IMG/VR virus record: IMGVR_UViG_2541047944_000002 | Coordinates: 1-44,087 of that record | Strand: one strand, 5' to 3' | DNA from: a virus | Taxonomy: Duplodnaviria > Heunggongvirae > Uroviricota > Caudoviricetes | Length of the DNA stretch: 44,087 nucleotides | Part shown: positions 413 to 18,866 of the stretch, in pieces | Numbering within the stretch: position 1 is the stretch's first letter | How the letters are laid out: each line of letters begins with the position of its first letter | The notes under the pieces: generated by a model | Told to the model about the DNA's origin: nothing | The model's database searches: none | What the model saw: the letters and a program-made list of their open reading frames with translations, nothing else | Made by a program: the position numbers and the translations under genes

Positions 413-571
413 AACATTTAAGCTGATGACCACCACGCTTTTTATTGACCATTTTGCACGCAAACTGGAAAACCTGGCGTCGTCATCTATTCTTAAAGAG
501 CAAGGCAACTAAGCCTGCATTAATGCCAACTTTTAGCGCACGGCTCTCTCCCAAGAGCCATTTCCCTGGAC

Positions 572-601
572 CGAATACAGGAATCGTATTCGGTCTTTTT
601 T
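572..601. other. attL core (left copy of att direct repeat), within a hairpin plus T-run
   Basis: cgaatacaggaatcgtattcggtcttttttt matches 42990..43019 at about 27 of 30 positions. Perfect 10-bp inverted repeat gaccgaatac / gtattcggtc followed by a T-run. Confidence 0.55.
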
Positions 602-733
602 TAATTGTATTTAAAATCAATTGGTTACAAACGTCTCCCCGAAATTCCCCGAAATTTACTCGAATTTCTGTATTCCGGTCTTTTTTGGTTATATCACAAC
701 CAAAATACATTTAACAATCCATTTACGTTAAAA

Positions 734-1810
734 TCAGAGCAGTAAGTACGTTTTTTCTCTCTCATCAAGATACATTTTTGTTGTCTTCTCCGATGTGTGG
801 CCAAGTAGACGTTGAGCAAATTCTTCCCCACATGTTTCTTTGTACAATCGTCCAGCCAGGCTTCTGATCTCGTGAAAAGTTGGTGGGTTTTCACTGAACT
901 GGATACCTGTTAATTTTCTAGCTGCGACAAATTTTTTTGTCAGGCCGTCCGGGTGAATGCTGCCGTCAGGGCTGTTTTTTCTAATTCCGGCACTGATTAG
1001 ATAATCCCCCCGACTTACCATGCGGCACCGTTCAACTACTGCACCAAGCCGTAAACCAGCGACCGGAAGGCTGAGTGACAGGGGGATAGCAATCATCATT
1101 CCTGTCTTAATTTGCCTGATGTGGAGACGATCATCATAAATATCACTGAACCGCATATTCGTTATGTCTTCGCGACGTTGTCCTGTTACAAGGGCTAAGT
1201 CCATAGCTAATGGGAACCATGCCGGAAGTTGATCTGCTGCCTCCCTGATGCAGTTGTATGTCTTTAGTTTCAGCCGTTCTCTTGTAACTACTATTTTCGG
1301 TGCTCTTGTTGGCGTTACTGGATTTTGAGATATACGCCCTTCAACAATGGCTTCGCGGAACATATCAGATAACACAGAACGCATTGATCCTGCCATCGTG
1401 TTTTTCCCTCCTTCAATCCACAAATCAAGAAACTCGGCAATATGGCGAGTGGTTATTTCTGTCAGTAAGATCTCTCCTAATTTTTCTTTTATTGTTTCCA
1501 GTTGATTTCCCCGAATTTTATAAGTGTTTCTGGACACTTTTCTCCTTATAAGAATCGTTTTGTAACGTTCAATCCAGTCTGCCATAGTAAATGAGTCGAA
1601 CCCTTTAAGTTTTTCAATTAAGGCAGCAGGAGAGTAGTTTTTGTATATATAATGATTTGCTTCAATTGCCTGTGCGATTGCATCTCTTCTTGAAATTTTA
1701 CCTAGTGTAAATTCTTCTTTCGTCAGAGGGTTGCGCCAGTAATATGCTTTGTCCCTCCTTCGATATGTTAAGTTCCTAGGCAAATTGGGATCGTATTTTT
1801 TCCGCTGCAT
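734..1810 (-). CDS. int: Tyrosine site-specific integrase (lambda Int family)
   Basis: 358-aa ORF at the prophage end; C-terminal region resembles lambda Int catalytic domain ([15 protein letters not shown] motif as recalled); adjacent to att repeat. Confidence 0.9.
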
Positions 1811-2163: not shown

Positions 2164-2352
2164 TCACGAGGACAGAAGTTTCTCGCAATTAAAATTTATC
2201 AGTTTTACTTTCTGCTCTCTGGAAACGCCTGCTTCTTTTTTCCCTGAGAGCATTTTTTCGCATTCTGATTTCGTTAATTTAGATTTTGAATATCTTGTCC
2301 AGTTAGTAGGTGTGCCACCTTCCTTTTCAATAGTGGCGGTAATTTTATACAT
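2164..2352 (-). CDS. Hypothetical protein, Rac YdaC-like (DUF1187)
   Basis: ORF with probable start at internal Met (MYKITATIEKEGG...); recalled similarity to Rac ydaC; synteny with lar. Confidence 0.45.
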   Translation of the reverse strand: MYKITATIEKEGGTPTNWTRYSKSKLTKSECEKMLSGKKEAGVSREQKVKLINFNCEKLLSS

Positions 2353-2539
2353 GAACACCTCCATTATTATTTCCAGTAGTTCGTTTATTCCATCTTGCAA
2401 GTGCTTCTTTTTCACTTCCACTATAGCCGGTTCGGGATTCGCACCCGTTACACTTCGCTCGGTAATATCCTGAAATGGCTTTCACCGTTACTGATGGACA
2501 ACCACAAAATGGACATGGTTTGACTTTTTCATACCGCAT
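2345..2539 (-). CDS. ralR: Restriction alleviation protein Lar/RalR family
   Basis: MRYEKVKPCPFCGCPSVTVKAISGYYRAKCNGCESRTGY...: Cys-rich Lar-family signature as recalled from Rac RalR. Confidence 0.7.
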   Translation of the reverse strand: MRYEKVKPCPFCGCPSVTVKAISGYYRAKCNGCESRTGYSGSEKEALARWNKRTTGNNNGGVHV

Positions 2540-2602
2540 TGTCTTTTCTCTCATAAAATAAAGTTTTGTTATGGCGGCGAGGCTACACCGCCATAGTAAA
2601 TA

Positions 2603-3655
2603 TCAGGAGCCGATATATTCTGGTTTCATATCTGTCAGTGTCGTTTTATACGCCTCATATAATTCTCCCAGATGTGGTCGTGCAGCATTCAGCGTATTTT
2701 CCAGAGCAGTAAATTTTTGTTCTGCTTCCGGATCACCTGATGAAGGCAGGTCATTTATCATCTTCTCAATACGGGCAATAGCATTGAGACGGTGATGACG
2801 CTGAACCACTTTTCCTTTAAGTTCCGTATAGAGAGCGCCAAGTGTATTTTTATGCTCTTCCACTTCCTGCCGAAGTGCTGTTGTTTCTCCGGTGCTTTGT
2901 GCCTGCTCAATACGTTCACGGAAAGCACTGATCCAGTTTTCCCCGACATCCTGCTCAATAATTGTTGTTTCACGTTCCGCACGGCAGGCGGATGTGTTTT
3001 TATGTTCCTGAACCGGATTAATGATTTTTTCCTGTGGTTCGTCCAGTTCGTCCCGGGTGTACACTCCAAGAATCACTTCAGGGCAATAAAGGCGCGCCCA
3101 GCGTTTCAGTGCCAGATAGGCAAGCTGCTGACGAGGATCATCGGCCCATAACGTTGAGTTACGTGTTCTGGCCTGCGCCAGAAGTAACTCCAGTACGCGT
3201 GGTTTGCTCTCTCCGCGTAGTGTTGCCTGGACGCGAACTCCGATCCCGTTTTCATCGACCAGCTTCCAGCCAGGTACACGATATTCTTTCCCTTTGTCGT
3301 TCTTCCTGATTTCAAATTTCCCGATAATTTTTTCCCACGGCCCGAACCAGTCATATTCAATACGCCCGGTTAACGGCCCACGAGTACTGATTACGGCATT
3401 AACCAGTTGCGCTTCATATCCGAGTACACCATTCACAACGAAAGTTTTCTGAGCTACTGCGTAAGGGTTCATTTGCCACTGCATCGCCTGCATGGTGATG
3501 GCCATGCAGTCTGATGGATTTCCCCGGAGGTGTTCCGGTACAGTAGCCATGCCGGAAGCCATTACCTGAGAAAACGTCTGAATTGCAGCCAGAGACTGAG
3601 GGCTGAAAACCGCAACATTAGAGTTAATATTTTCTTGTTGAGTTAATTCGTTCAT
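2603..3655 (-). CDS. recT: RecT/Bet-family single-strand annealing recombinase
   Basis: 350-aa ORF with GGAGG-type RBS, directly downstream of the recE-like exonuclease in Rac-like order. Family call from synteny plus general resemblance, not a verified alignment. Confidence 0.6.
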   Translation of the reverse strand: MNELTQQENINSNVAVFSPQSLAAIQTFSQVMASGMATVPEHLRGNPSDCMAITMQAMQWQMNPYAVAQKTFVVNGVLGYEAQLVNAVISTRGPLTGRIEYDWFGPWEKIIGKFEIRKNDKGKEYRVPGWKLVDENGIGVRVQATLRGESKPRVLELLLAQARTRNSTLWADDPRQQLAYLALKRWARLYCPEVILGVYTRDELDEPQEKIINPVQEHKNTSACRAERETTIIEQDVGENWISAFRERIEQAQSTGETTALRQEVEEHKNTLGALYTELKGKVVQRHHRLNAIARIEKMINDLPSSGDPEAEQKFTALENTLNAARPHLGELYEAYKTTLTDMKPEYIGS

Positions 3656-3666
3656 TGTGTCCTTCC

Positions 3667-6600
3667 TCAGATGCTCAGTGCTTCAAGACGACGAAGATCA
3701 AAGTCGTTTAATTCGTCGGTATAACTTTCGGTAATCGGTGCTGGCCAGTTGTTTGTCTCCAGCGCTTCGTTTATCTGGTGTAGCGTCCGGCGATATTCCT
3801 GTCGACCAAGTTCAAGGAGTTCCTGCGAGGCTTCCACGACTGCCACCCAGTGATAGCCAGCATCTTTGTTGACGAAGATCCAGAAAAATTTGTCCAGGTT
3901 TGCCACATCGCAATACATTGCGGCGCTGAGGTGATAATCACGCTCAATAATTTCACGGTGCAGGCGATCTTTAAGTCGTTCCTGCCGCACATAACCGAGG
4001 CTGACTGACTTCACGTCAGCGCAAATGCTTTCGTATGGCAGCCGGATTTCGATATCAGGACGGACCCTGATTTCCAGCCCGGTTTCTTCATCAAACCCGA
4101 AATAGCTGATTTCAGATTTGCGATCCGGGTGGTTGAGTAGCCTTGCTGCATCGGTATTGTTTTGCAGTGCCGCGTGAATATTTTTTGCCTGTTCATACAT
4201 ATCCGGACTGATAAACGTTTTCCCGGCGTTTTCTTCTTGCTGGCGTTTTTGCCAGTCCTCCAGTGTCACCAGTTCCGGGCGAATTTTCCGTGCGATTTCG
4301 GTTAATTGCTCTTTTGTGCCACTGATGTTGTAAGGCAAAGATTTAGCACGTTCTTTTTTTGCCAGTTCTGGATCTACAGTTTCAATTTGATCCAGAAGCT
4401 GCTCCCGTGCTCCACTGGTTTTCAACAGAGGAGGGAGGCTTGCGTTGTATTCTTTAATACAGGCTTTCATTGCTGATGCTGTGTGTTTTTCCCCCTCAGG
4501 AATACGCCGAAATTCCACCGGAAGCGAACCGTAAAGGATGCCTGTTTCTTCGGCCCCAGCACTTACAGACAGTGGCTGTATAAGAGTGCTGTTGTAGCTT
4601 TCGATCCACTCTTTCATCTGCTCTGGTGTCATCAGTGCTGGCAGACTGGCATTGTGTTTTTTAATGATGGCGATCAGTTCGTTAGAAGTAGTAACCACAT
4701 ATTCAGGAACCGGTACCGGAATGGCATATTCATCAGCGAATTTATCCGTTTCCAGAACATAGCTGTGAATGATCCGCCCACGCAGCAGTGCATCACTTTC
4801 CTCGTTCGGAATAGTTCCGGCAATGTGCCGCCCGTGGTAATACATCAGGCTGATACGGGCATCCTTCAGCATCGTGCTGCTTATTCCGTTGGCGGAGTGA
4901 TAAACCTCGTTCGGGAGGTTTTCATAGCGGCCTGGCTCGAAATATGACGGCCACATGATTTCAGTTGCTACAGGAGCTGACGCTTCGCCAGTTTCATCAC
5001 TGCAATTGCGATGCGGATCGCTGTCAGCATTCTCATTGTGCGGATGTTCAGCGCCTTCCATTTTCTCCGGCTCATTTTCCCGAACTTCAACCTGATTCTC
5101 GTCATCGAATGTTTCCTGATATGTTGCGTCGCCCATCACCGCACCACAGTCAGGGCAGTTATCCCCGCCAGACTGACCGCAGGCATTGCAAACTTTTTCC
5201 ACTTCCTGTTGCGCCACTGGTTCAGGCTGTTTCGTTTCTGGCTCGTTTTGTAACGCATTTGGGCTGTTTTGTTCCGCTTTCTGGTCGTTCTGTTCCGATT
5301 CTTGTTGGTTCTGGTTCACTGAATCGCGGGTTTCAATCCCCTTCACCCATTTCGGATCATTCGGGTCGCTAATCCCCTCAACAAATTCTCCGCGAGAGGC
5401 AGCCAGCAATTTGTCGGCATCGACAGGATTTTTGGGCGGAATGGTTTTCCGGGCTTCATGAAGTTCTGCCCGCAGTTTCTGATATTTCGCATCAACAGAA
5501 TTTACCTGTGACTGAGCATCCAGCGGCTGCGTGTCCTGATGATGTTCAGTTGCATCCGGTTCCACTGTTTCAGCCGTTGCCTGTTCATCTGCCATTGCGC
5601 AAGATGGTTGCGGTTTTTCTTCATCATCCTGTTTTTCTTCTTCTGTTACCCGCTGCGGCATCGGGGCAGAGGAGCGACCGCAGGCAATATCCACGATTTC
5701 CGGATCAGGGTTGGCATGATCGGTTTCAGTCAGTACTTTGTTCAGATATTCAGTGACGTGTGCGGGGATAACCTCGATCCCAATTGGTGCTTCTTTTACG
5801 GACGCAACCACGATGGCGCGGGAATAATCCAGCCCGCCAGGCATGGCGATGAATTTGTCGCGGAAAACAGAAAAGGGCGGTTTATTTTCAGCGATAATTT
5901 CCTCGACACGTTTAGCGTGTGCCGGATGAAGGTTATAAATGTCCACGTCCATTGAACGGGCCAGTACGCCAGTGGCTACATCGCGTGCCAGTGACGTCAG
6001 ATCGTGGACGAAACCTTCGCCGCGATCGGTGAGGTTCCCGCCGCCAGCATTAGCACCGGAAGCCGTGCGAGTGATGCGTGAAACACGATTTCCTTTCATC
6101 CACTCTTTTGTCAGCAGACCGCGATCGGTGTAGTCTGCGTCCAGGTATGCTTCGAAAAAAGCAGTCATCAGCCCCAGACTTGAATTGCCTGGATTAGGGA
6201 AAACTTTGTCAGTATCACGAACCAGTCTGTGAAGATCGCGAATCTCCAGCAGGTCGAGCAGGCTGGTTTTGTGGGAAACAGCCAGGGCAGTAACAGCTGG
6301 TAGTTCTTCAGCCCGTGCAATATGTAATGTCTGGAGTTCGTCGCGTGAAACGTGCGTTACCGGTTTTTCGCTGCCGTGTTGAGCAAGCCAGCGAATGGGC
6401 AGCTCTTGGCCAGAAATCGGGAGTAGCATATTCTCCTCAATCTCAGTCATGTCTTCGCCATTAACATTGGTATTGTCAGTGCTGGCTGGTTTGTCCTGCG
6501 CAGAGGATGAGGGCGCGATAAATACCATTGTGATGCCATCTTCCCCGCCTTTTTCGTAACGGTTGCAGAATTCCGTATCAAATACGCCTTCTGGTGGAAG

Positions 6601-6813
6601 GTCATCAACAACGGGCAAATTGACGCGAACAGGTTTTTTAAAGTCATCTTCATCGTAGCCAGCATCGTCAATCGCAACAGCACCACGGGAGATGGCAATG
6701 GATAATTTTTTCGCTTCAGCCCAGTAGAAACCGCCTTTAATACCGAGACGTTTTCTTACTTTGTCATTTTTTGCTTCGTAATACAGTGGGTAAACTTGTT
6801 TATCGGTGCTCAT
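3667..6813 (-). CDS. recE: Exodeoxyribonuclease VIII (RecE)-like, enlarged 1048-aa form
   Basis: Long ORF upstream of recT-like gene; C-terminal nuclease region and Rac-like context; contains acidic low-complexity stretches and a Cys-rich segment ([16 protein letters not shown]). Confidence 0.65.
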
Positions 6814-13518: not shown

Positions 13519-13995
13519 ATGCAAGAAATCAAAGAAAATATCAGGCAACAGCTTTACGGGTTTTATATTGCTTATGATTTGTGGCTGAAGAACGGGGCGA
13601 AACCCGGCGGAGTGTTTTCTCAAAATTATGGTTTATGCGCCAATCTTTTCGATTATCTCACATTAATTGGTACCCCCTGTGAGGCAGCGCTGGAGCAATT
13701 ACACGCTGATTTCAGAAGTGCCGGGCTGAATGAGGCGTTGCCGTTTAACGAGGGTAAAGAGCATTACCATGAAGAAAGAGGGCACAACATGTGCCATATG
13801 AATCCGGCACGAGTGGCGTGGGTCAGGGCGCAGACAGGGCAGCCAGCGCCGGAAGGACTGATTAAAGCGGTGCGTTTTTATGAGCAGGTAAAACGTGAGA
13901 ACCCGCCAGTCGAAACAGGAGCATGGAAAGACGCTGTTGACTGGGTGCTCAAAGAGGCTTGCCAGGCTGTAAACATTCGCATCAAAGGAGAGTGA
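13519..13995 (+). CDS. Hypothetical protein
   Basis: 158-aa ORF; unusual SD-hairpin-AUG leader; ends in IRIKGE encoded by the junction motif. Confidence 0.55.
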   Translation: MQEIKENIRQQLYGFYIAYDLWLKNGAKPGGVFSQNYGLCANLFDYLTLIGTPCEAALEQLHADFRSAGLNEALPFNEGKEHYHEERGHNMCHMNPARVAWVRAQTGQPAPEGLIKAVRFYEQVKRENPPVETGAWKDAVDWVLKEACQAVNIRIKGE

Positions 13996-13996
13996 G

Positions 13997-14489
13997 AATG
14001 CAAATTTCACCGGTTACTCTTCGTGTTGCGAAGGCGTTTATATCCAGACATCACCGACACAATAAACCCCCGGTGGGGCATAAATTCAGCATTGGTCTGA
14101 GAAATGATGCCGGAGAATTGATAGGTGTGGCGACAGCCGGTCGACCTGTTGCACGACATTTGGACGATGGATTAACGCTTGAAGTAAATCGCACATGTAC
14201 CACAGGAGAACGCAACGCTAACAGCGCGCTTTATGGTGCTGTCTGGCGGGCAGCAAAGGCTATGGGTTATCAACGTTGTATTACGTACACCCAGGCAGAT
14301 GAATCAGGAGCATCTCTTCGCGCAGCTGGTTTTGTTCGTGTGAAAGAGCTTCCTCCAAGAAAAAGCTGGGCGGAATCAAGCGTCGCCCTGCGGAGTAAAC
14401 GCGATCCGGTCGGAAACGGTGGTGTTCCTCGTGTGCTCTGGGAAATCAGGAGAATGAGTACCACTGGCATTCGCATCAAAGGAGAGTGA
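13997..14489 (+). CDS. Hypothetical protein, possibly GNAT-like acyltransferase fold
   Basis: ATG after junction motif; C-terminal half has a GNAT-like pattern (ALYGAVWRAAKAMGYQRCITYTQADESGASLRAAGFVRV). Weak, from memory. Confidence 0.45.
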
Positions 14490-14764: not shown

Positions 14765-15589
14765 ATGACCAGTATTACCAAAGAACGTATTGAATTGTTC
14801 ATTAAAAATCCGCTTGAAAACGGGCTTGCCCGTGGCGAACAAATGGAACTGGCGCAGATTGCACTGGCCTCACTGGCAGCAGAGCCGGTGGCGTGGAAGG
14901 CAACCTTCACGCAAATTGACCATGAATATAATACGTTCACCGCTATGTATTCTGACAAAGCAGAAGTCGAACGGTGGGTGCGACTGCATAAAGTAGGTGA
15001 TTTTCGGGCAAAAATAACACCACTTTATGCATCATCGCCAGCGCTGGTAGTGCCTGATAAGTTGCCGCGTGAATACATAAGAGGTTGGCCTCTTGCGTAT
15101 AGTGATTATGCTGAAGGATGGAACGATTGCCGCGAAGCCATGCTTCAGTCAGGAAACTTTCGGGAAAACAAGGATTCGTCAACCAATAATTTTCGGGAAA
15201 TTTCGGAAACGTCAACCAACTCTCCGCTAATTCCTGGTGAAGTGTTGTCCGCAATCCGGGAGGTTGCCAGGATTCGTGCCGATTTCGATGATTTTGACGG
15301 TGACAGGCGAGGTGTTGGTGATTGTCTGGATGAGGCCGAGCAAGAGCTTATCGTTACCATTAACAAATATGCCAGTCAGTTGGCAGTAGAGCCGGTAGTA
15401 CCTGATGACGTTCTGGAACAGACAGTAGCGTCGCCAGTGCCAGGTAACCAGGTTAGCGAATTAACAATGTGGGTTAAGCGTCTGGCTCACTCCTTAAAGT
15501 ACGCCAATAGTTTAAGCAGCTTGCCTGATAAGGCGATGGAATATCTGAAGCAGAACGGGTTGGTAGGTGTGGAGGATATTTTACGATGA
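14765..15589 (+). CDS. Hypothetical protein
   Basis: 274-aa ORF with AAGGAG RBS; contains an internal imperfect tandem repeat (15158..15219). Confidence 0.55.
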   Translation: MTSITKERIELFIKNPLENGLARGEQMELAQIALASLAAEPVAWKATFTQIDHEYNTFTAMYSDKAEVERWVRLHKVGDFRAKITPLYASSPALVVPDKLPREYIRGWPLAYSDYAEGWNDCREAMLQSGNFRENKDSSTNNFREISETSTNSPLIPGEVLSAIREVARIRADFDDFDGDRRGVGDCLDEAEQELIVTINKYASQLAVEPVVPDDVLEQTVASPVPGNQVSELTMWVKRLAHSLKYANSLSSLPDKAMEYLKQNGLVGVEDILR

Positions 15590-15669
15590 CCTGGCCTGAA
15601 GCATTCGCAACGGTAGGAATGGTGATGGCGGTGGCGCTGGTGGTGTATTCGATTTGCCGCTGGGGATAA
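15586..15669 (+). CDS. Putative 27-aa hydrophobic peptide, translationally coupled
   Basis: ATGA overlap with the upstream stop; MTWPEAFATVGMVMAVALVVYSICRWG is one predicted transmembrane helix. Below ORF-track cutoff. Confidence 0.3.
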   Translation: MTWPEAFATVGMVMAVALVVYSICRWG

Positions 15670-15784
15670 AAACGGTTTGCGGGAAAAGGAGAGTTAAGTA
15701 GAATTGCTGCGGGTGCTTGAGGCTATCTGCCTCAGGCATGAACACCAAAAGGCAGATAGAGAAAAGCCCCAGTTAACATTACGC

Positions 15785-15850
15785 GTCCGGCAAGACGCTT
15801 AACATTAATCTGAGGCTCAATCTATGAACGGCAAATCTAGGTTAGCCTCT
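15785..15850 (-). ncRNA. sok: Putative Sok-like antisense RNA (approximate coordinates)
   Basis: Inferred from hok/mok organisation: antisense partner expected opposite the mok start/SD region; candidate minus-strand TTGCCT-17-TAACCT promoter just right of it. Not directly verifiable by eye. Confidence 0.3.
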
Positions 15851-16036
15851 TACGCGCCGAAAGGCAAGGAGAAGCAGGCTATGAAGCAGCAAAAGGCGAT
15901 GTTAGTCGCCCTGATCGTCATCTGTATTACCGTCATAGTGACGGCACTGGTAACGAGGAAAGACCTCTGCGAGGTACGAATCCGAACCGGCCAGACGGAG
16001 GTCGCTGTCTTCACAGCTTACGAACCTGAGGAGTAA
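15824..16036 (+). CDS. mok: Mok-like in-frame leader ORF of the hok locus
   Basis: 70-codon ORF sharing frame and stop with hok, as for mokC/hokC in K-12 (recalled). Confidence 0.5.
   Translation: MNGKSRLASYAPKGKEKQAMKQQKAMLVALIVICITVIVTALVTRKDLCEVRIRTGQTEVAVFTAYEPEE
15881..16036 (+). CDS. hok: Hok/Gef-family type I toxin
   Basis: MKQQKAMLVALIVICITVIVTALVTRKDLCEVRIRTGQTEVAVFTAYEPEE: 51 aa, single TM helix, near match to recalled HokC/Gef. Confidence 0.8.
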   Translation: MKQQKAMLVALIVICITVIVTALVTRKDLCEVRIRTGQTEVAVFTAYEPEE

Positions 16037-16106
16037 GAGACCCGGCGGGGGAGAAATCCCTCGCCACCTCTGATGTGTCAGGCATCCTCAACGCACCCGC
16101 ACTTAA

Positions 16107-16126
16107 CCCGCTTCGGCGGGTTTTTT
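16107..16126 (+). terminator. Intrinsic terminator of the hok transcript
   Basis: cccgc-ttcg-gcggg followed by tttttt. Confidence 0.6.
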
Positions 16127-16311
16127 GTTGCGCGCTGAATACGCAGGGTGAAAAATAACCATATATTTGATTATATACACAACAAAAAATAAAAGTCATT
16201 GCACCTGCACATTAAATAATCAAATATACGACGTGAAATAAATATTTTTCAGATTAATATTTTTGTCTCTATGTGGATATAACCGTTTGTACTTATAAAC
16301 CTGGAGGCATC

Positions 16312-16595: not shown

Positions 16596-17195
16596 ATGGC
16601 GCATATACAACTGGTCAAACAAACCTCTTCTGGATTACTTCTCCCGGCGACGCCGGAGAGTTGCGATTTTTTGCATCAAATCAAAATAGGTGAGTGGATA
16701 CACGCGGACTTTAAGCGAGTGCGTAACTACGCGTTCCACAAGCGTTTTTTCAAACTCCTGCAACTGGGATTCGATTACTGGACTCCGAACGGTGGGGCGA
16801 TCACGCCTCGCGAACGAGAACTGGTGTCCGGTTTCGTTGAGTATCTGTGCGAATCAGTTGGTCGGGAACACACTCCAGCCCTGAGCGAAGCCGCAGAGCA
16901 ATATCTGAATGCCGTTGCGACACGCAGAACCCGGGATACGGCATTGCTAAAGTCGTTTGACGCTTTCCGCGAGTGGGTAACCATTCAGGCAGGATTTTAC
17001 ACCGAGCATATTTATCCTGATGGTAGTCGTGGGCGCAGGGCAAAATCTATCGCATTTGCGAATATGGACGAAACCGAGTTTCAGCAGGTTTATAAAGCCG
17101 TACTGAATGTGCTGTGGAACTGGATCCTGTTCCGTAAATTCTCCTCTCCGGAGGAAGTCGAAAATGTGGCCGCGCAGCTGCTGGAGTTTGCGTAA
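16596..17195 (+). CDS. YbcN-like protein (DUF1367)
   Basis: 199-aa ORF recalled as resembling DLP12 YbcN; conserved position upstream of Q in lambdoid prophages. Confidence 0.6.
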   Translation: MAHIQLVKQTSSGLLLPATPESCDFLHQIKIGEWIHADFKRVRNYAFHKRFFKLLQLGFDYWTPNGGAITPRERELVSGFVEYLCESVGREHTPALSEAAEQYLNAVATRRTRDTALLKSFDAFREWVTIQAGFYTEHIYPDGSRGRRAKSIAFANMDETEFQQVYKAVLNVLWNWILFRKFSSPEEVENVAAQLLEFA

Positions 17196-17485
17196 TGGTG
17201 GATTTACGTAAAGCGGCAAAAGGTCAGATGTGTACAGTCAGAATTCCTGGCTACTGCAATCACAATCCCGAAACGTCCGTGCTGGCGCATTACAGGCTGG
17301 CGGGGACGTGTGGAACAGCGACAAAACCACACGATATGCAGGCAGCGATTGCCTGCAGCTCATGCCACGATTTAATCGACGGGCGGGTAAAAACCAGCGA
17401 TTACACCAAAGAAGAATTACGCCTGATGCATGCAGAAGGTGTTTTTCGCACACAAGAAATCTGGAGAAAGGAAGGTTATTTATGA
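17195..17485 (+). CDS. YbcO-like putative nuclease (DUF1364)
   Basis: Cys/His-rich 96-aa ORF (CTVRIPGYCNHNPETSVLAHY...CSSCHD) recalled as resembling DLP12 YbcO. Confidence 0.6.
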   Translation: MVDLRKAAKGQMCTVRIPGYCNHNPETSVLAHYRLAGTCGTATKPHDMQAAIACSSCHDLIDGRVKTSDYTKEELRLMHAEGVFRTQEIWRKEGYL

Positions 17486-18036
17486 TTTACCCAACAAATA
17501 CAGGCAAAAGCGGGGAACACCTTCGTCTCACCACGCTGGAAAGTGTCTGGATTCAGGGAAAACTGCGCATGTGGGGGCGCTGGTCATATATTGGCGGCGG
17601 TAAGACGGGAAATATGTTTAACCAGTTGCTGACCTCTAAAAAGCTGACAAAAACGGCAATTAACGAGGCGCTCCGGAGGATGAAAAAAGCAGGTCTGGAC
17701 AAACCTGAACTTGAGGCTTTTTTGCGGGATATGATCAACGGCAAGCAAAAAACCTGGCTGGTGCATTGTACTGATGCAGAGGCGTTATGCATTGATCGGG
17801 TGATTAGTGAAGTGCTGGCAGAACACCCAGGATTGATTTGTATCCTCCGGCAACGATATGAAGGGAGAGGGATGACTAAGCGAAAAATGGCTGAATTGCT
17901 GAATGACGCACACCCTGAGTGGTGTTTCCGGACGTGCTGCAGTCGGGTAGATGTATGGCTAAATCTTGCTGAATATATGCTCTATCTGCCGATGCGTGAT
18001 GCATTCTCTTCCGGGGATCTAAAAACCGTTTGTTGA
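17482..18036 (+). CDS. Late-gene antiterminator Q
   Basis: ATG at 17482 (MIYPTNTGKSG...), ATGA overlap with ybcO-like stop; immediately followed by a strong promoter and short terminated leader. Confidence 0.6.
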   Translation: MIYPTNTGKSGEHLRLTTLESVWIQGKLRMWGRWSYIGGGKTGNMFNQLLTSKKLTKTAINEALRRMKKAGLDKPELEAFLRDMINGKQKTWLVHCTDAEALCIDRVISEVLAEHPGLICILRQRYEGRGMTKRKMAELLNDAHPEWCFRTCCSRVDVWLNLAEYMLYLPMRDAFSSGDLKTVC

Positions 18037-18062
18037 CTCAATCTGTTATCCGGGGCTATATT
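18033..18062 (+). promoter_or_regulatory. Late promoter PR-prime (TTGACT-18-TATATT) with qut-like leader
   Basis: -35 TTGACT overlaps the Q stop codon; -10 TATATT 18 bp downstream; two hairpins in the leader. Confidence 0.5.
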
Positions 18063-18124
18063 CCTCACGCGCCAGCAAAATCTGGCGTCGGGATTGGCGT
18101 CCCGGATGTTTACGGAGCGATATG

Positions 18125-18146
18125 AGACGCGCCCGCGTCTTTTTTC
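18125..18146 (+). terminator. tR-prime-like intrinsic terminator
   Basis: agacgcg-cc-cgcgtct followed by tttttt, about 65 nt downstream of the promoter. Confidence 0.55.
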
Positions 18147-18308
18147 ATATCGTTTGCACAGTCACATTCGCGATTTATGGCGGGCTGTGTGGGGGAGCCG
18201 AAAGGCTCGCCGGTTTCCGTACCCGGTTACGCCAACCCTGCACAGTTCGCCACCAGTTCGATTGGCGTCGTCGGTGGCGATAATTTCCAAATGTACGGAG
18301 TTATCGTT

Positions 18309-18866
18309 ATGACCACTCAAATCTCTGTTGAAACTCTCTCCCCGATCACCCATAACCAGATTCCTGTTATTACCACCGAACTTTTGGCGCAGCTTTACGG
18401 CACTGAGCCGGTGCGTATTCGCCAGAATCATCATGAGAACAAAGTACGCTTCGTTGAAGGGAAACACTTTTTCAAAGTTGTTGGTAATGACCTTAAAGAA
18501 TTGCGGGTCGCTTTAAACTACTCACAAAATCCAGTTTCACCCAAAGCCCGCTCCCTCATCCTCTGGACAGAACGAGGCGCAGCACGCCACGCCAAAATGC
18601 TCGAAACCGATCAGGCATGGGATGTGTTCGAAAAACTGGAAGACTGCTATTTCAGTCAAAAGGATCCGTCAACGCCAGTTTCATGCCAGAAAAGTTACGA
18701 CACGCGAGTTCTCTGTTATCAGAGAGGCGGTGTCACTGTTTCCACAATTCAGTTACGGGATGATGATATTGTTATTTCCCTTGAGTCATGGCTGGAACTG
18801 GCGAGAGCCAATGGTTGGTTTGTTGTTCGCAGAGATAAACTGGTGGAAAGGTTGATGCAGCTTTAA
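18309..18866 (+). CDS. ORF6N/Bro-N-like DNA-binding protein (antirepressor-like cargo gene)
   Basis: ATG at 18309 with GGAG RBS; family call from memory and uncertain; sits between tR-prime and the holin. Confidence 0.45.
   Translation: MTTQISVETLSPITHNQIPVITTELLAQLYGTEPVRIRQNHHENKVRFVEGKHFFKVVGNDLKELRVALNYSQNPVSPKARSLILWTERGAARHAKMLETDQAWDVFEKLEDCYFSQKDPSTPVSCQKSYDTRVLCYQRGGVTVSTIQLRDDDIVISLESWLELARANGWFVVRRDKLVERLMQL

What the first reader, a model, noticed from the sequence alone, without database searches (positions are those of the whole stretch)
15700..16131. hok/mok/sok-type type I toxin-antitoxin locus carried by the prophage
A 51-aa Hok/Gef-like toxin shares frame and stop with a 70-codon mok-like ORF. 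It is preceded by a leader with a 10-bp long-range pairing (ctatctgcct at 15724..15733 with aggcagatag at 15750..15759) and followed by a strong terminator. A Sok-like antisense RNA is expected opposite the mok start. Such loci can stabilise the element or act in abortive infection.
Basis: partly seen in the sequence, partly recalled or inferred. Interest (0 to 1): 0.45.

Follow-up and report, generated by a model that had tools for sequence, protein, structure and literature searches.

The report
Intact prophage hok/sok toxin-antitoxin locus
This is a complete but ordinary copy of the well-known hok/mok/sok RNA-controlled toxin-antitoxin cassette (hokD/hokW type), which lambdoid prophages carry in most E. 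coli genomes.

Summary
Window 15699-16127 is a complete hok/mok/sok type I toxin-antitoxin cassette in the nin region of a rac-like lambdoid prophage.

- **Toxin and leader:** the 51-aa ORF is a Hok/Gef toxin (Pfam E 6e-24), 96% identical to K-12 HokD. The leader matches Rfam RF01794 (112.8 bits, gathering score 59).
- **Regulatory elements:** every element defined for plasmid R1 hok/sok is present. These are the tac-fbi 5'-3' closure, the ucb/mok-SD sequestration, the alternative tac/ucb and SD/dcb helices, a metastable 5' hairpin, a 3' protective hairpin and a terminator.
- **Antisense promoter:** the minus strand carries TTGCCT-17-TAACCT. This is the same -10 hexamer whose mutation abolished sokW antitoxin activity in phage Sp5.
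- **Comparative support:** tac-fbi pairing shows compensatory changes across 48 loci.
the 10-bp pairing is a local hairpin, with its first arm off by 1 nt. The real long-range pairing, tac-fbi, was missed. The Rfam "sok" model lies on the hok mRNA strand.
- **How common it is:** related DNA occurs in 4722 of 5426 complete E. coli genomes. The exact Hok protein is on at least 999 contigs named HokD.

Already known; low interest.

The parts
15699..15704 (+). hok/mok mRNA promoter -10 hexamer TAGAAT; weak -35-like TTTGCG at 15676-15681
   Evidence: Read from the sequence. It ends 6 nt before the predicted +1. TAGAAT occupies this position in 73 of 77 phage-borne relatives. The R1 hok -10 (TATGAT) was validated by suppressor mutations. 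The consensus scan missed it because the -35 is poor.
15711..16127 (+). Full-length mok-hok mRNA, about 415 nt, predicted
   Evidence: The 5' end is position 1 of Rfam RF01794, GGGUGCUUGA. The 3' end is at the intrinsic terminator. The MFE fold is -170.1 kcal/mol, z -6.7, and closes the 5' end on the 3' UTR.
15711..15722 (+). tac (translational activator element), the mRNA 5' end
   Evidence: It pairs with fbi in the full-length fold and with ucb in the 60-nt 5' domain fold. G1-G3 and G5-U8 are invariant in 48 loci.
15713..15739 (+). Metastable 5' hairpin of the nascent transcript (15713-15723 pairs with 15729-15739)
   Evidence: The fold of the first 30 nt is -19.6 kcal/mol, z -5.1. It corresponds to the transient structure described for R1 hok.
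15723..15759 (+).
   Evidence: It is 92.9% paired in 48 loci, with 3 pairs changed on both sides. It is part of the first helix of RF01794.
15764..15772 (+). ucb (anti-SD, AAAGCCCCAG)
   Evidence: In the full-length fold it pairs with the mok SD region 15810-15817. In the 5'-domain fold it pairs with tac. The tac/ucb pairs are 99.4% paired and invariant in 48 loci.
15812..15815 (+). mok Shine-Dalgarno GAGG, 8 nt before the mok ATG
   Evidence: Read from the sequence. It is invariant in 48 loci. It is sequestered by ucb or by dcb.
15824..16036 (+). mok reading frame (70 codons), overlapping hok in frame and sharing its stop
   Evidence: It is 84% identical to Sp5 orf74, also 70 aa. The exact 70-aa product is on 22 contigs.
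15845..15849 (+). dcb (GCCUC), which pairs with the mok SD region in the processed mRNA
   Evidence: The SD/dcb hairpin 15812-15849 folds at -14.7 kcal/mol, z -3.9. It is 100% paired in 48 loci. It is helix 3 of RF01794.
15760..15832 (-). Predicted Sok antisense RNA, about 70 nt; both ends approximate
   Evidence: The TSS is inferred 7 nt after the -10. The fold shows a 9-nt single-stranded 5' tail, a long hairpin and a U-rich tail (-31.1 kcal/mol, z -5.4). Sp5 sokW is reported as 71 nt complementary to the hokW 5' UTR and was detected by northern blot with a probe equivalent to 15803-15832.
15839..15867 (-). Sok promoter: -35 TTGCCT (15867 to 15862), 17-nt spacer, -10 TAACCT (15844 to 15839)
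   Evidence: Read from the sequence. The -10 is identical to the Sp5 hexamer altered in the sokW 'pro-less' mutant (primer YO-421), which lost antitoxin activity. TTGCCT-17-TAACCT is present in 75 of 77 phage-borne loci. The critical -10 positions are invariant in 48 diverse loci.
15866..15871 (+). hok Shine-Dalgarno AAGGAG, overlapping the Sok -35 on the other strand
   Evidence: Read from the sequence. AAGGAG is near-invariant. Homology with K-12 hokD begins here.
15881..16036 (+). hok toxin gene (51 aa)
   Evidence: Pfam PF01848, E 5.8e-24. PHROG 251 'MokW-like host killing', E 7e-33. 96% identical to K-12 HokD. The exact protein is on at least 999 contigs named HokD.
16019..16022 (+). TACG motif at the Tyr47 codon: candidate TadA A-to-I editing site (A16020, Tyr to Cys)
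   Evidence: TACGAA is invariant in 48 loci. GCTTACGAACCT is present in 77 of 77 phage-borne loci. Editing at this position was reported for K-12 hokC, hokD and hokE. The local fold does not show a convincing hairpin loop.
16041..16062 (+). 3' UTR hairpin (9 bp, GAAA loop): predicted 3' end protector of the processed mRNA
   Evidence: The stem bases are nearly invariant in 48 loci. In R1 the last stem-loop of the truncated mRNA protects against 3' exonucleases.
16086..16098 (+). fbi (fold-back inhibitory element, CCUCAACGCACCC)
   Evidence: It forms 12 bp with tac with one bulged C. The duplex is -21.5 kcal/mol, and 0 of 200 shuffled tac sequences do as well. Compensatory changes occur at tac positions 4 (UA to CG in 11 loci) and 12 (GC to AU in 6 loci). 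pi is about 0.005-0.03 among 74 phage-borne loci.
16105..16127 (+). Intrinsic terminator of the hok mRNA
   Evidence: The same terminator is found in K-12 hokD and in most phage-borne loci. Sp5 hokW has a different sequence here.

Best explanation
This is an intact hok/mok/sok type I toxin-antitoxin cassette of the hokD/hokW lineage, carried in the nin region of a lambdoid (rac-like) prophage of E. coli.

Proposed mechanism. Steps are inferred by homology to R1 hok/sok and Sp5 hokW-sokW unless marked 'shown'.

1. A weak promoter (-10 TAGAAT) makes a stable mRNA of about 415 nt starting at G15711.
2. The nascent 5' end folds into a metastable hairpin. In the finished transcript the 5' end (tac) pairs with fbi in the 3' UTR, and ucb covers the mok SD, so the mRNA is neither translated nor bound by Sok. 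Shown in silico: the MFE fold, with conservation and covariation of these helices.
3. Slow 3' trimming back to the hairpin at 16041-16062 removes fbi. tac then switches to ucb, and the mok SD region pairs with dcb in a stem-loop that presents the mok start. Shown: all alternative helices are encoded and conserved.
4. Sok is an unstable antisense RNA of about 70 nt. It is made from TTGCCT-17-TAACCT on the minus strand. It pairs with the mok translation-initiation region, blocks mok and so the coupled hok translation, and marks the duplex for RNase III.
5. When Sok supply stops, the processed mRNA is translated. Possible triggers are prophage induction, loss of the element, or a general transcription shut-off such as phage infection. 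The 51-aa Hok inserts into the inner membrane and collapses it. TadA editing of Tyr47 to Cys may add a further layer.

Most likely role in this context: Hok is released on prophage induction and speeds lysis and phage release, as shown for the 93%-identical Sp5 locus. This role is held with much lower confidence than the identity and the mechanism.
For: Hok/Gef domain. mok frame with SD. RF01794 match at 112.8 bits against a gathering score of 59, covering the whole model. tac-fbi closure in the MFE, z -6.7. tac-fbi duplex of about -21 kcal/mol at a fixed offset in nearly all of about 50 related loci, with 0 of 200 shuffles as good for the window. Compensatory changes in tac-fbi, the leader hairpin and the ucb/SD flank, with slid controls at 35-49% paired against 89%. 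tac/ucb and SD/dcb are invariant. Local folds of the three mutually exclusive conformations are each significant. The Sok fold has a single-stranded 5' tail. The Sok -10 hexamer is identical to the one mutated in the Sp5 'pro-less' construct. Sp5 hokW-sokW was shown to be a functional type I TA system that aids lysis and doubles phage release. The promoters and the TACG motif are conserved in 73-77 of 77 phage-borne loci. The R1 mechanism is summarised. The locus is annotated hokD in 4722 of 5426 E. coli genomes.
Against: There are no expression or toxicity data for this copy. The Sok ends are inferred, not mapped. The consensus promoter scan did not call either promoter, because both are weak matches. 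The MFE of an arbitrarily truncated mRNA (15711-16075) kept ucb on the SD and did not switch to the open form. Several chromosomal hok loci were reported unable to mediate post-segregational killing. The Sp5 3' end differs from this one after fbi. NCBIfam Hok HMMs score below their curated cut-offs.
Confidence: 0.9

Rival explanations
1. The cassette is a decayed, non-functional relic, like hokA, hokC, hokD and hokE of E. coli K-12. It keeps an ORF but no longer kills or is no longer regulated.
For: K-12 hokD, the closest named protein at 96% identity, has lost everything upstream of the hok SD. Chromosomal hok loci tested earlier did not mediate post-segregational killing. Some related loci are visibly broken, such as L053 and L065 in Shigella, where tac-fbi is lost.
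Against: Here every element is present and matches the experimentally active Sp5 locus. These elements are the hok -10, tac, ucb, mok SD and ATG, dcb, Sok -35 and -10, hok SD, the intact 51-aa ORF, the 3' hairpin, fbi and the terminator. The exact Hok protein is widespread. 42 of 45 diverse Hok homologues tested were toxic.
Confidence: 0.06
2. The mechanism is the same, but the main role is post-segregational killing. Cells that lose or excise the prophage lose the unstable Sok, are killed by Hok made from the stable mRNA, and so the element is stabilised.
For: This is the classical role of R1 hok/sok and a stated general role of TA systems on mobile elements. hok genes are about four-fold enriched in prophages.
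Against: In Sp5, deleting hokW-sokW had no effect under normal growth, and the measured phenotype was on induction. Chromosomal hok loci failed post-segregational killing tests. Prophage stability was not measured anywhere for this lineage.
Confidence: 0.25
3. The mechanism is the same, but the main role is abortive infection. A superinfecting lytic phage shuts off host transcription, Sok decays, and Hok kills the cell before the phage completes its cycle.
For: R1 hok/sok on a high-copy plasmid lowered T4 plating efficiency by 42% and plaque size by about 85% (cited). Prophages often carry defence genes.
Against: hok loci are not enriched near defence systems. The only direct test on a prophage copy showed a pro-phage effect, not an anti-phage one. 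The effect in R1 needed a high copy number.
Confidence: 0.2

Closest known systems
hokW-sokW of Stx2 phage Sp5 (VT2-Sakai) / 933W, E. coli O157:H7
   Same: About 93% nucleotide identity over 15690-16108. The leader architecture is the same, including tac, ucb, dcb, fbi, the Sok -35 and -10, and a 70-codon mok. Both lie in a lambdoid prophage. The same 27-aa ORF lies upstream. Shown experimentally to be a type I TA system.
   Different: mok codons 2-5, the predicted Sok 5'-tail target, differ: ATGAACGGCAAATCT here against ATGCTGAACACATGT. Sok specificity probably differs as a result. The Hok C-terminus differs (TAYEPEE against VDYESEK). The sequence after fbi, including the terminator, is unrelated.
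hokD (relF) of E. coli K-12, Qin cryptic prophage
   Same: Hok protein is 49/51 identical. The sequence is near-identical from the hok SD through the 3' UTR hairpin, fbi and the terminator. The TACG editing site is the same. PGAP gives this name to such loci.
   Different: K-12 hokD lacks the whole leader: no tac, ucb, mok start, dcb or Sok promoter. Upstream of the hok SD the sequence is the 3' end of relE. The window copy is the complete form.
hok/sok (parB) of plasmid R1, the prototype
   Same: The same set of elements and the same three-conformation logic: metastable hairpin, tac/fbi with ucb/SD, then tac/ucb with SD/dcb. Also shared are a mok frame overlapping hok, a cis-antisense Sok over the mok initiation region, and a protective 3' hairpin. 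Both match Pfam PF01848, and the window leader matches RF01794, whose consensus has these helices.
   Different: The Sok-terminator hairpin carries a 16-nt insertion relative to the Rfam consensus. It is carried by a prophage rather than a plasmid. The demonstrated role in the prophage lineage is help with lysis, not plasmid stabilisation.

Membership tests
[quoted passage not shown] | Small hydrophobic Hok/Gef toxin (about 50 aa, Pfam PF01848) | tested here: met
   E 5.8e-24, 83.9 bits against a cut-off of 22, full-length domain match. PHROG 251 at E 7e-33.
[quoted passage not shown] | mok reading frame that overlaps hok, has its own SD, and couples translation | tested here: met
   A 70-codon ORF at 15824-16036, in frame with hok and sharing its stop. 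GAGG lies 8 nt upstream. Coupling itself was not testable.
[quoted passage not shown] | hok mRNA leader matching the curated covariance model (Rfam RF01794) | tested here: met
   112.8 bits against a gathering score of 59, model positions 1-157 of 157, + strand.
[quoted passage not shown] | Long-range tac-fbi pairing that closes the full-length mRNA | tested here: met
   12 bp in the MFE. The duplex is -21.5 kcal/mol and 0 of 200 shuffles match it. Compensatory changes occur in 48 loci.
[quoted passage not shown] | Alternative helices: ucb/mok-SD (closed) against tac/ucb plus SD/dcb (open), and a metastable 5' hairpin | tested here: met
   All are encoded. Local folds have z scores of -3.9 to -5.1. 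The helices are 99-100% paired across 48 loci but invariant, so they give no covariation evidence. The ucb/SD flank shows compensatory changes. The switch itself was not reproduced by the MFE of a truncated RNA.
[quoted passage not shown] | Cis-encoded antisense Sok RNA over the mok initiation region, with its own promoter | tested here: inconclusive
   The promoter TTGCCT-17-TAACCT is present and identical to the experimentally validated sokW -10. The predicted RNA folds like Sok. Transcription cannot be shown from sequence.
[quoted passage not shown] | Hok is toxic and Sok neutralises it; 3' processing activates the mRNA | not testable with these tools
   Shown for R1 and for the 93%-identical Sp5 locus, not for this copy.
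hokD as defined by the K-12 gene (relF) | Near-identical Hok protein and 3' region | tested here: met
   49/51 aa identical. DNA aligns from the hok SD to the terminator. The exact protein is named HokD in public records.
hokD as defined by the K-12 gene (relF) | Truncated locus fused downstream of relBE, without leader or sok | tested here: not met
   The window has the full leader and the Sok promoter, and there is no relE upstream. It is the intact ancestor-like form, closer in organisation to hokW-sokW.
NCBIfam Hok family HMMs (NF007279, NF007290) | Score above the curated cut-off | tested here: not met
   48.6 bits against 73, and 39.5 bits against 89. PGAP evidently names these proteins by another rule. 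This does not affect Pfam membership.
TadA-edited hok mRNAs | Tyr codon TAC inside a TACG motif at the position aligned with HokB Cys46 | tested here: met
   TACG is at 16019-16022, and the context is identical to K-12 hokD, which is edited. The editing itself is not testable here, and the loop structure is not supported by the local fold.

The most novel reading that the evidence does not exclude
The short segment from the mok SD to mok codon 5 (15817-15838) is the predicted landing site of the Sok 5' tail. It is a diversity hotspot among otherwise near-identical prophage hok/sok cassettes: pi is 0.32 there against 0.01 or less in the structural elements, and 74 loci carry at least 16 alleles. 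This could reflect diversifying selection for mutually orthogonal Sok/hok pairs, so that the several prophage copies in one genome (median 2, up to 10) do not cross-neutralise one another. Each prophage would then keep a private kill switch. The window carries one of the less common alleles (9 of 74).
Probability: 0.35. Interest if true: 0.3.

Novelty: already known. Interest (0 to 1): 0.08.

Why it matters
It matters little as a discovery. hok/sok is the textbook type I toxin-antitoxin system, and prophage-borne hokD/hokW copies are annotated in most E. coli genomes. One such copy has been characterised experimentally.

The value here is in annotation:
- This copy is complete, unlike the truncated K-12 hokD whose name it inherits.
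- Its Sok RNA, promoters and RNA switch elements can now be placed to the nucleotide. Genome annotation omits all of them.
- The Rfam 'sok' hit should be read as the hok leader on the sense strand.

The allele diversity at the Sok target may be worth a small population-level study of cross-talk between co-resident copies.

Tried and rejected
- **Promoter scan:** the sigma-70 consensus scan found neither the hok nor the Sok promoter. Both have weak hexamers. They were placed instead by homology, conservation and the Sp5 mutagenesis primers.
- **Open conformation:** folding a 3'-truncated mRNA (15711-16075) did not give the open tac/ucb form as the MFE. The true processing site is unknown, and thermodynamic MFE ignores kinetics. 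Domain-level folds do give each conformation.
- **NCBIfam:** the Hok models fell below their cut-offs.
- **isrK-like hit:** the hit on the hok 3' UTR (30.5 bits against a gathering score of 50) was judged a resemblance in shape only (hairpin plus terminator).
- **TadA loop:** a tRNA-like hairpin loop around the TACG site was not supported (z -0.14 and +0.84).
- **Upstream 27-aa ORF:** the hydrophobic ORF at 15586-15669 was considered as a fourth component. It was rejected because it precedes hok in only 13 of 79 phage-borne loci.
- **Alignment register:** the MAFFT register in the middle of fbi is shifted for Photorhabdus loci, which lack the bulge. This inflates 'not paired' counts. The per-locus duplex calculation shows that these pairs form.
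- **Selection bias:** loci for the diversity profile were chosen by Hok protein identity. Low diversity in the CDS is therefore partly an artefact of selection. The contrasts within the leader are not.

Full report
**1. What is in the sequence**

Window 15824-16036 (+) is a 70-codon ORF. The in-frame ATG at 15881 opens a 51-aa ORF that ends at the same TAA. The 51-aa product is a full-length Hok/Gef domain: Pfam PF01848, E 5.8e-24, 83.9 bits against a cut-off of 22. It also matches PHROG 251 'MokW-like host killing' at E 7e-33.

An intrinsic terminator follows. Its stem is 16105-16122, with 5 of 7 pairs GC, and it is followed by T6.

With a 17-nt loop it is a local hairpin, not a long-range contact.

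**2. Rfam result**

Rfam RF01794 ('sok antitoxin') matches 15711-15886 over its whole length. The score is 112.8 bits against a gathering score of 59.

The match is on the + strand. The model consensus starts GGGUGCUUGA and ends at the hok AUG. It therefore describes the leader of the hok mRNA, and its helices are those of the processed, open form (tac/ucb and SD/dcb). It does not describe the antisense RNA. It still identifies the locus securely.

**3. Element map**

I used the description of R1 hok/sok in Le Rhun et al. (PMC9841398) as the reference. All elements can be placed.

| Element | Coordinates | Basis |
|---|---|---|
| hok promoter -10 TAGAAT | 15699-15704, 6 nt before +1 (G15711) | |
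| tac | 15711-15722 | |
| Metastable 5' hairpin | 15713-15723 with 15729-15739 | -19.6 kcal/mol, z -5.1 |
| Leader hairpin | 15723-15732 with 15750-15759 | |
| ucb | 15764-15772 | |
| mok SD GAGG | 15812-15815 | |
| dcb | 15845-15849 | |
| hok SD AAGGAG | 15866-15871 | |
| 3' UTR hairpin | 16041-16062 | |
| fbi | 16086-16098 | |

The MFE fold of the whole transcript is -170.1 kcal/mol with z -6.7. It pairs tac with fbi (12 bp, one bulge) and ucb with the mok SD, which is the closed form.

The first 60 nt alone fold into tac/ucb plus the leader hairpin (-26.8 kcal/mol, z -4.8). Positions 15810-15851 fold into the SD/dcb stem-loop (-14.7 kcal/mol, z -3.9). The sequence therefore encodes all three mutually exclusive conformations of the hok switch.

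The MFE of an arbitrarily truncated RNA did not switch by itself. I treat this as uninformative.

**4. Sok**

On the minus strand, TTGCCT (15867 to 15862), a 17-nt spacer and TAACCT (15844 to 15839) form a promoter that the consensus scan missed.

Takada et al. (PMC8621323) inactivated sokW of phage Sp5 with primer YO-421. That primer changes exactly this hexamer: TAGGTTA on the + strand becomes CCGGCTC. Antitoxin activity was lost and was restored by sokW in trans.

The window is identical at these bases. The predicted RNA, about 15832 to 15760, has a 9-nt single-stranded 5' tail, a long hairpin and a U-rich end (-31.1 kcal/mol, z -5.4). It covers the mok start and SD. Its ends are inferred, not mapped.

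**5. Comparative evidence**

- **Escherichia to Photorhabdus and Erwinia.** A scan of species-representative genomes gave 65 loci. In almost all loci that keep the leader, the first 13 nt find their best partner 45-56 nt after the stop codon, at about -18 to -26 kcal/mol. Broken Shigella copies are the exceptions.
- **Closed structure in 48 aligned loci.** It is 89% paired, against 35-49% when partners are slid. It shows compensatory changes in tac-fbi (UA to CG in 11 loci, GC to AU in 6), in the leader hairpin, and next to the ucb/SD helix (AU to GC in 14 loci).
- **Open-form helices.** tac/ucb and SD/dcb are 99-100% paired but invariant. They are conserved without adding covariation evidence.
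- **Phage-borne copies (IMG/VR).** In 77 copies the Sok promoter is TTGCCT-17-TAACCT in 75, the hok -10 is TAGAAT in 73, and the TACG context is identical in all 77.

**6. Relation to known loci**

Megablast finds related DNA in 4722 of 5426 complete E. coli genomes. The median is 2 places per genome and the maximum 10. These loci are annotated hokD, and the best full-length identity is 98%. There are also 101 phage records, including Stx phages and mEp460 'MokW', and P1-like plasmids.

The exact Hok protein occurs on at least 999 contigs as 'toxin HokD'.

Against K-12 hokD the protein is 49/51 identical. DNA homology, however, starts only at the hok SD. In K-12 the whole leader is replaced by the end of relE. 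The window copy is the complete form of that lineage.

Its leader is nearly identical to Sp5 hokW-sokW, with about 93% identity overall. In Sp5, HokW is toxic and sokW neutralises it, partly through RNase III and Hfq. sokW RNA disappears on mitomycin C induction, HokW then accumulates in the inner membrane, and deleting the locus delays lysis and halves phage yield.

A recent survey reports hok in almost 80% of Enterobacteriaceae genomes and about four-fold enrichment in prophages.

**7. Context**

The window starts in the chromosome, with yebY and RyeA/SdsR at 462-606. It then enters a prophage.

| Feature | Coordinates |
|---|---|
| Integrase | 734-1810(-) |
| RalR/RalA and Lar-like ORFs | about 2164-2554 |
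| RecT/RecE-like ORFs | 2603-6813(-) |
| Replication genes | not individually mapped |
| hok cassette | 15699-16127 |
| DUF1367/NinB-like | 16596-17195 |
| HNH-like | 17195-17485 |
| Q-like antiterminator | 17482-18036 |
| isrK/C4 RNAs and an anti-repressor | 18056-18866 |
| Lysis and morphogenesis genes | downstream; not individually mapped |

This is the usual place for hok in lambdoid phages.

**8. Mechanism and role**

I commit to the classical hok/sok mechanism, with confidence about 0.9.
- An inert full-length mRNA is locked by tac-fbi.
- Slow 3' trimming opens the leader.
- Sok blocks mok-coupled hok translation and triggers RNase III decay.
- Hok is made when the Sok supply stops.

The structural steps are supported here in silico and by covariation. 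The RNA processing, Sok transcription and toxicity steps are inferred from R1 and Sp5.

The biological role is less certain. Help with lysis on induction is the only role demonstrated for a prophage copy. Prophage stabilisation and abortive infection remain possible. A decayed relic is unlikely because no element is damaged.

**9. Extras**

- **Editing site.** The Tyr47 codon lies in an invariant TACG motif (16019-16022). This is the site where K-12 hokC, hokD and hokE mRNAs are edited by TadA to Cys. The local fold does not show a tRNA-like loop.
- **Diversity hotspot.** Among 74 phage-borne copies, nucleotide diversity peaks sharply at 15817-15838. This segment runs from the mok SD to codon 5 and is the predicted target of the Sok 5' tail. 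pi is 0.32 there against 0.01 or less in tac, ucb, dcb, the Sok promoter and fbi. There are at least 16 alleles, and the window's allele is in 9 of 74. This fits diversification of Sok specificity but was not tested further.

**10. Verdict**

This is a complete, typical member of a very well known system. Novelty: already known. Interest: low.

Noticed in passing
window 16019-16022: The Hok Tyr47 codon (TAC) sits in a TACG motif. TACGAA is invariant in 48 diverse loci, and the 12-nt context is identical in 77 of 77 phage-borne loci. It is the position where TadA A-to-I editing (Tyr to Cys) was reported for K-12 hokC, hokD and hokE. The local fold does not show a clear hairpin loop.
   Followed up: partly
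window 15817-15838: This is a nucleotide-diversity hotspot among 74 near-identical phage-borne hok cassettes: pi is 0.32 against 0.01 or less in the flanking structural elements, with at least 16 alleles. It coincides with the predicted target of the Sok 5' tail (mok SD to codon 5). It may reflect diversification of antisense specificity between co-resident copies.
   Followed up: partly
window 15586-15669 (+): A 27-aa hydrophobic ORF (MTWPEAFATVGMVMAVALVVYSICRWG) overlaps the stop of the upstream 274-aa ORF (ATGA). It has no Pfam or PHROG match. It is intact upstream of hok in only 13 of 79 phage-borne loci, including Sp5, so it belongs to a variable upstream module and not to the cassette.
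   Followed up: partly
window 15711-15886 (+): The Rfam family RF01794, named 'sok antitoxin', matches the hok mRNA (sense) strand. Its consensus structure is that of the processed hok leader. Annotating such hits as the Sok gene gives the wrong strand and length.
   Followed up: yes
window 16045-16126 (+): A sub-threshold isrK-like match (30.5 bits against a gathering score of 50) lies on the hok 3' UTR, over the hairpin plus terminator. A true isrK copy lies 2 kb downstream. This is probably a resemblance in shape only.
   Followed up: no
window 2164-2554: The same prophage carries a second type I toxin-antitoxin system. RalA RNA is at 2168-2346 (+, 219.6 bits), antisense to a RalR-like ORF within 2164-2421 (-). 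A Lar-like ORF lies next to it at 2345-2554 (-).
   Followed up: no
window 462-606 and 734-1810: The RyeA/SdsR sRNA pair lies at the chromosome-prophage junction, directly beside the prophage integrase. The prophage is therefore inserted next to yebY/ryeA. Only 228 of 5426 E. coli genomes match at least 80% of the first 1500 bases of the window, which span this junction.
   Followed up: partly
window 18056-18866: The c4-a1b1, isrK and C4 antisense RNA motifs lie immediately upstream of, and overlap the start of, an anti-repressor ORF (18177-18866). This is a P1/P7-type immunity module downstream of the Q-like antiterminator gene.
   Followed up: no
window 13959-14489 (+): This ORF matches a Mom-like DNA modification protein (PHROG 1384, E 9e-43) in the early region upstream of hok.
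   Followed up: no
L009, L010, L026, L031, L055, L063 (related loci): The K-12-type truncated hokD, with the leader replaced by the 3' end of relE, recurs in several Escherichia, Shigella and Kluyvera genomes. The relBE-hokD fusion is therefore an inherited or transferred arrangement and not a K-12 peculiarity.
   Followed up: no
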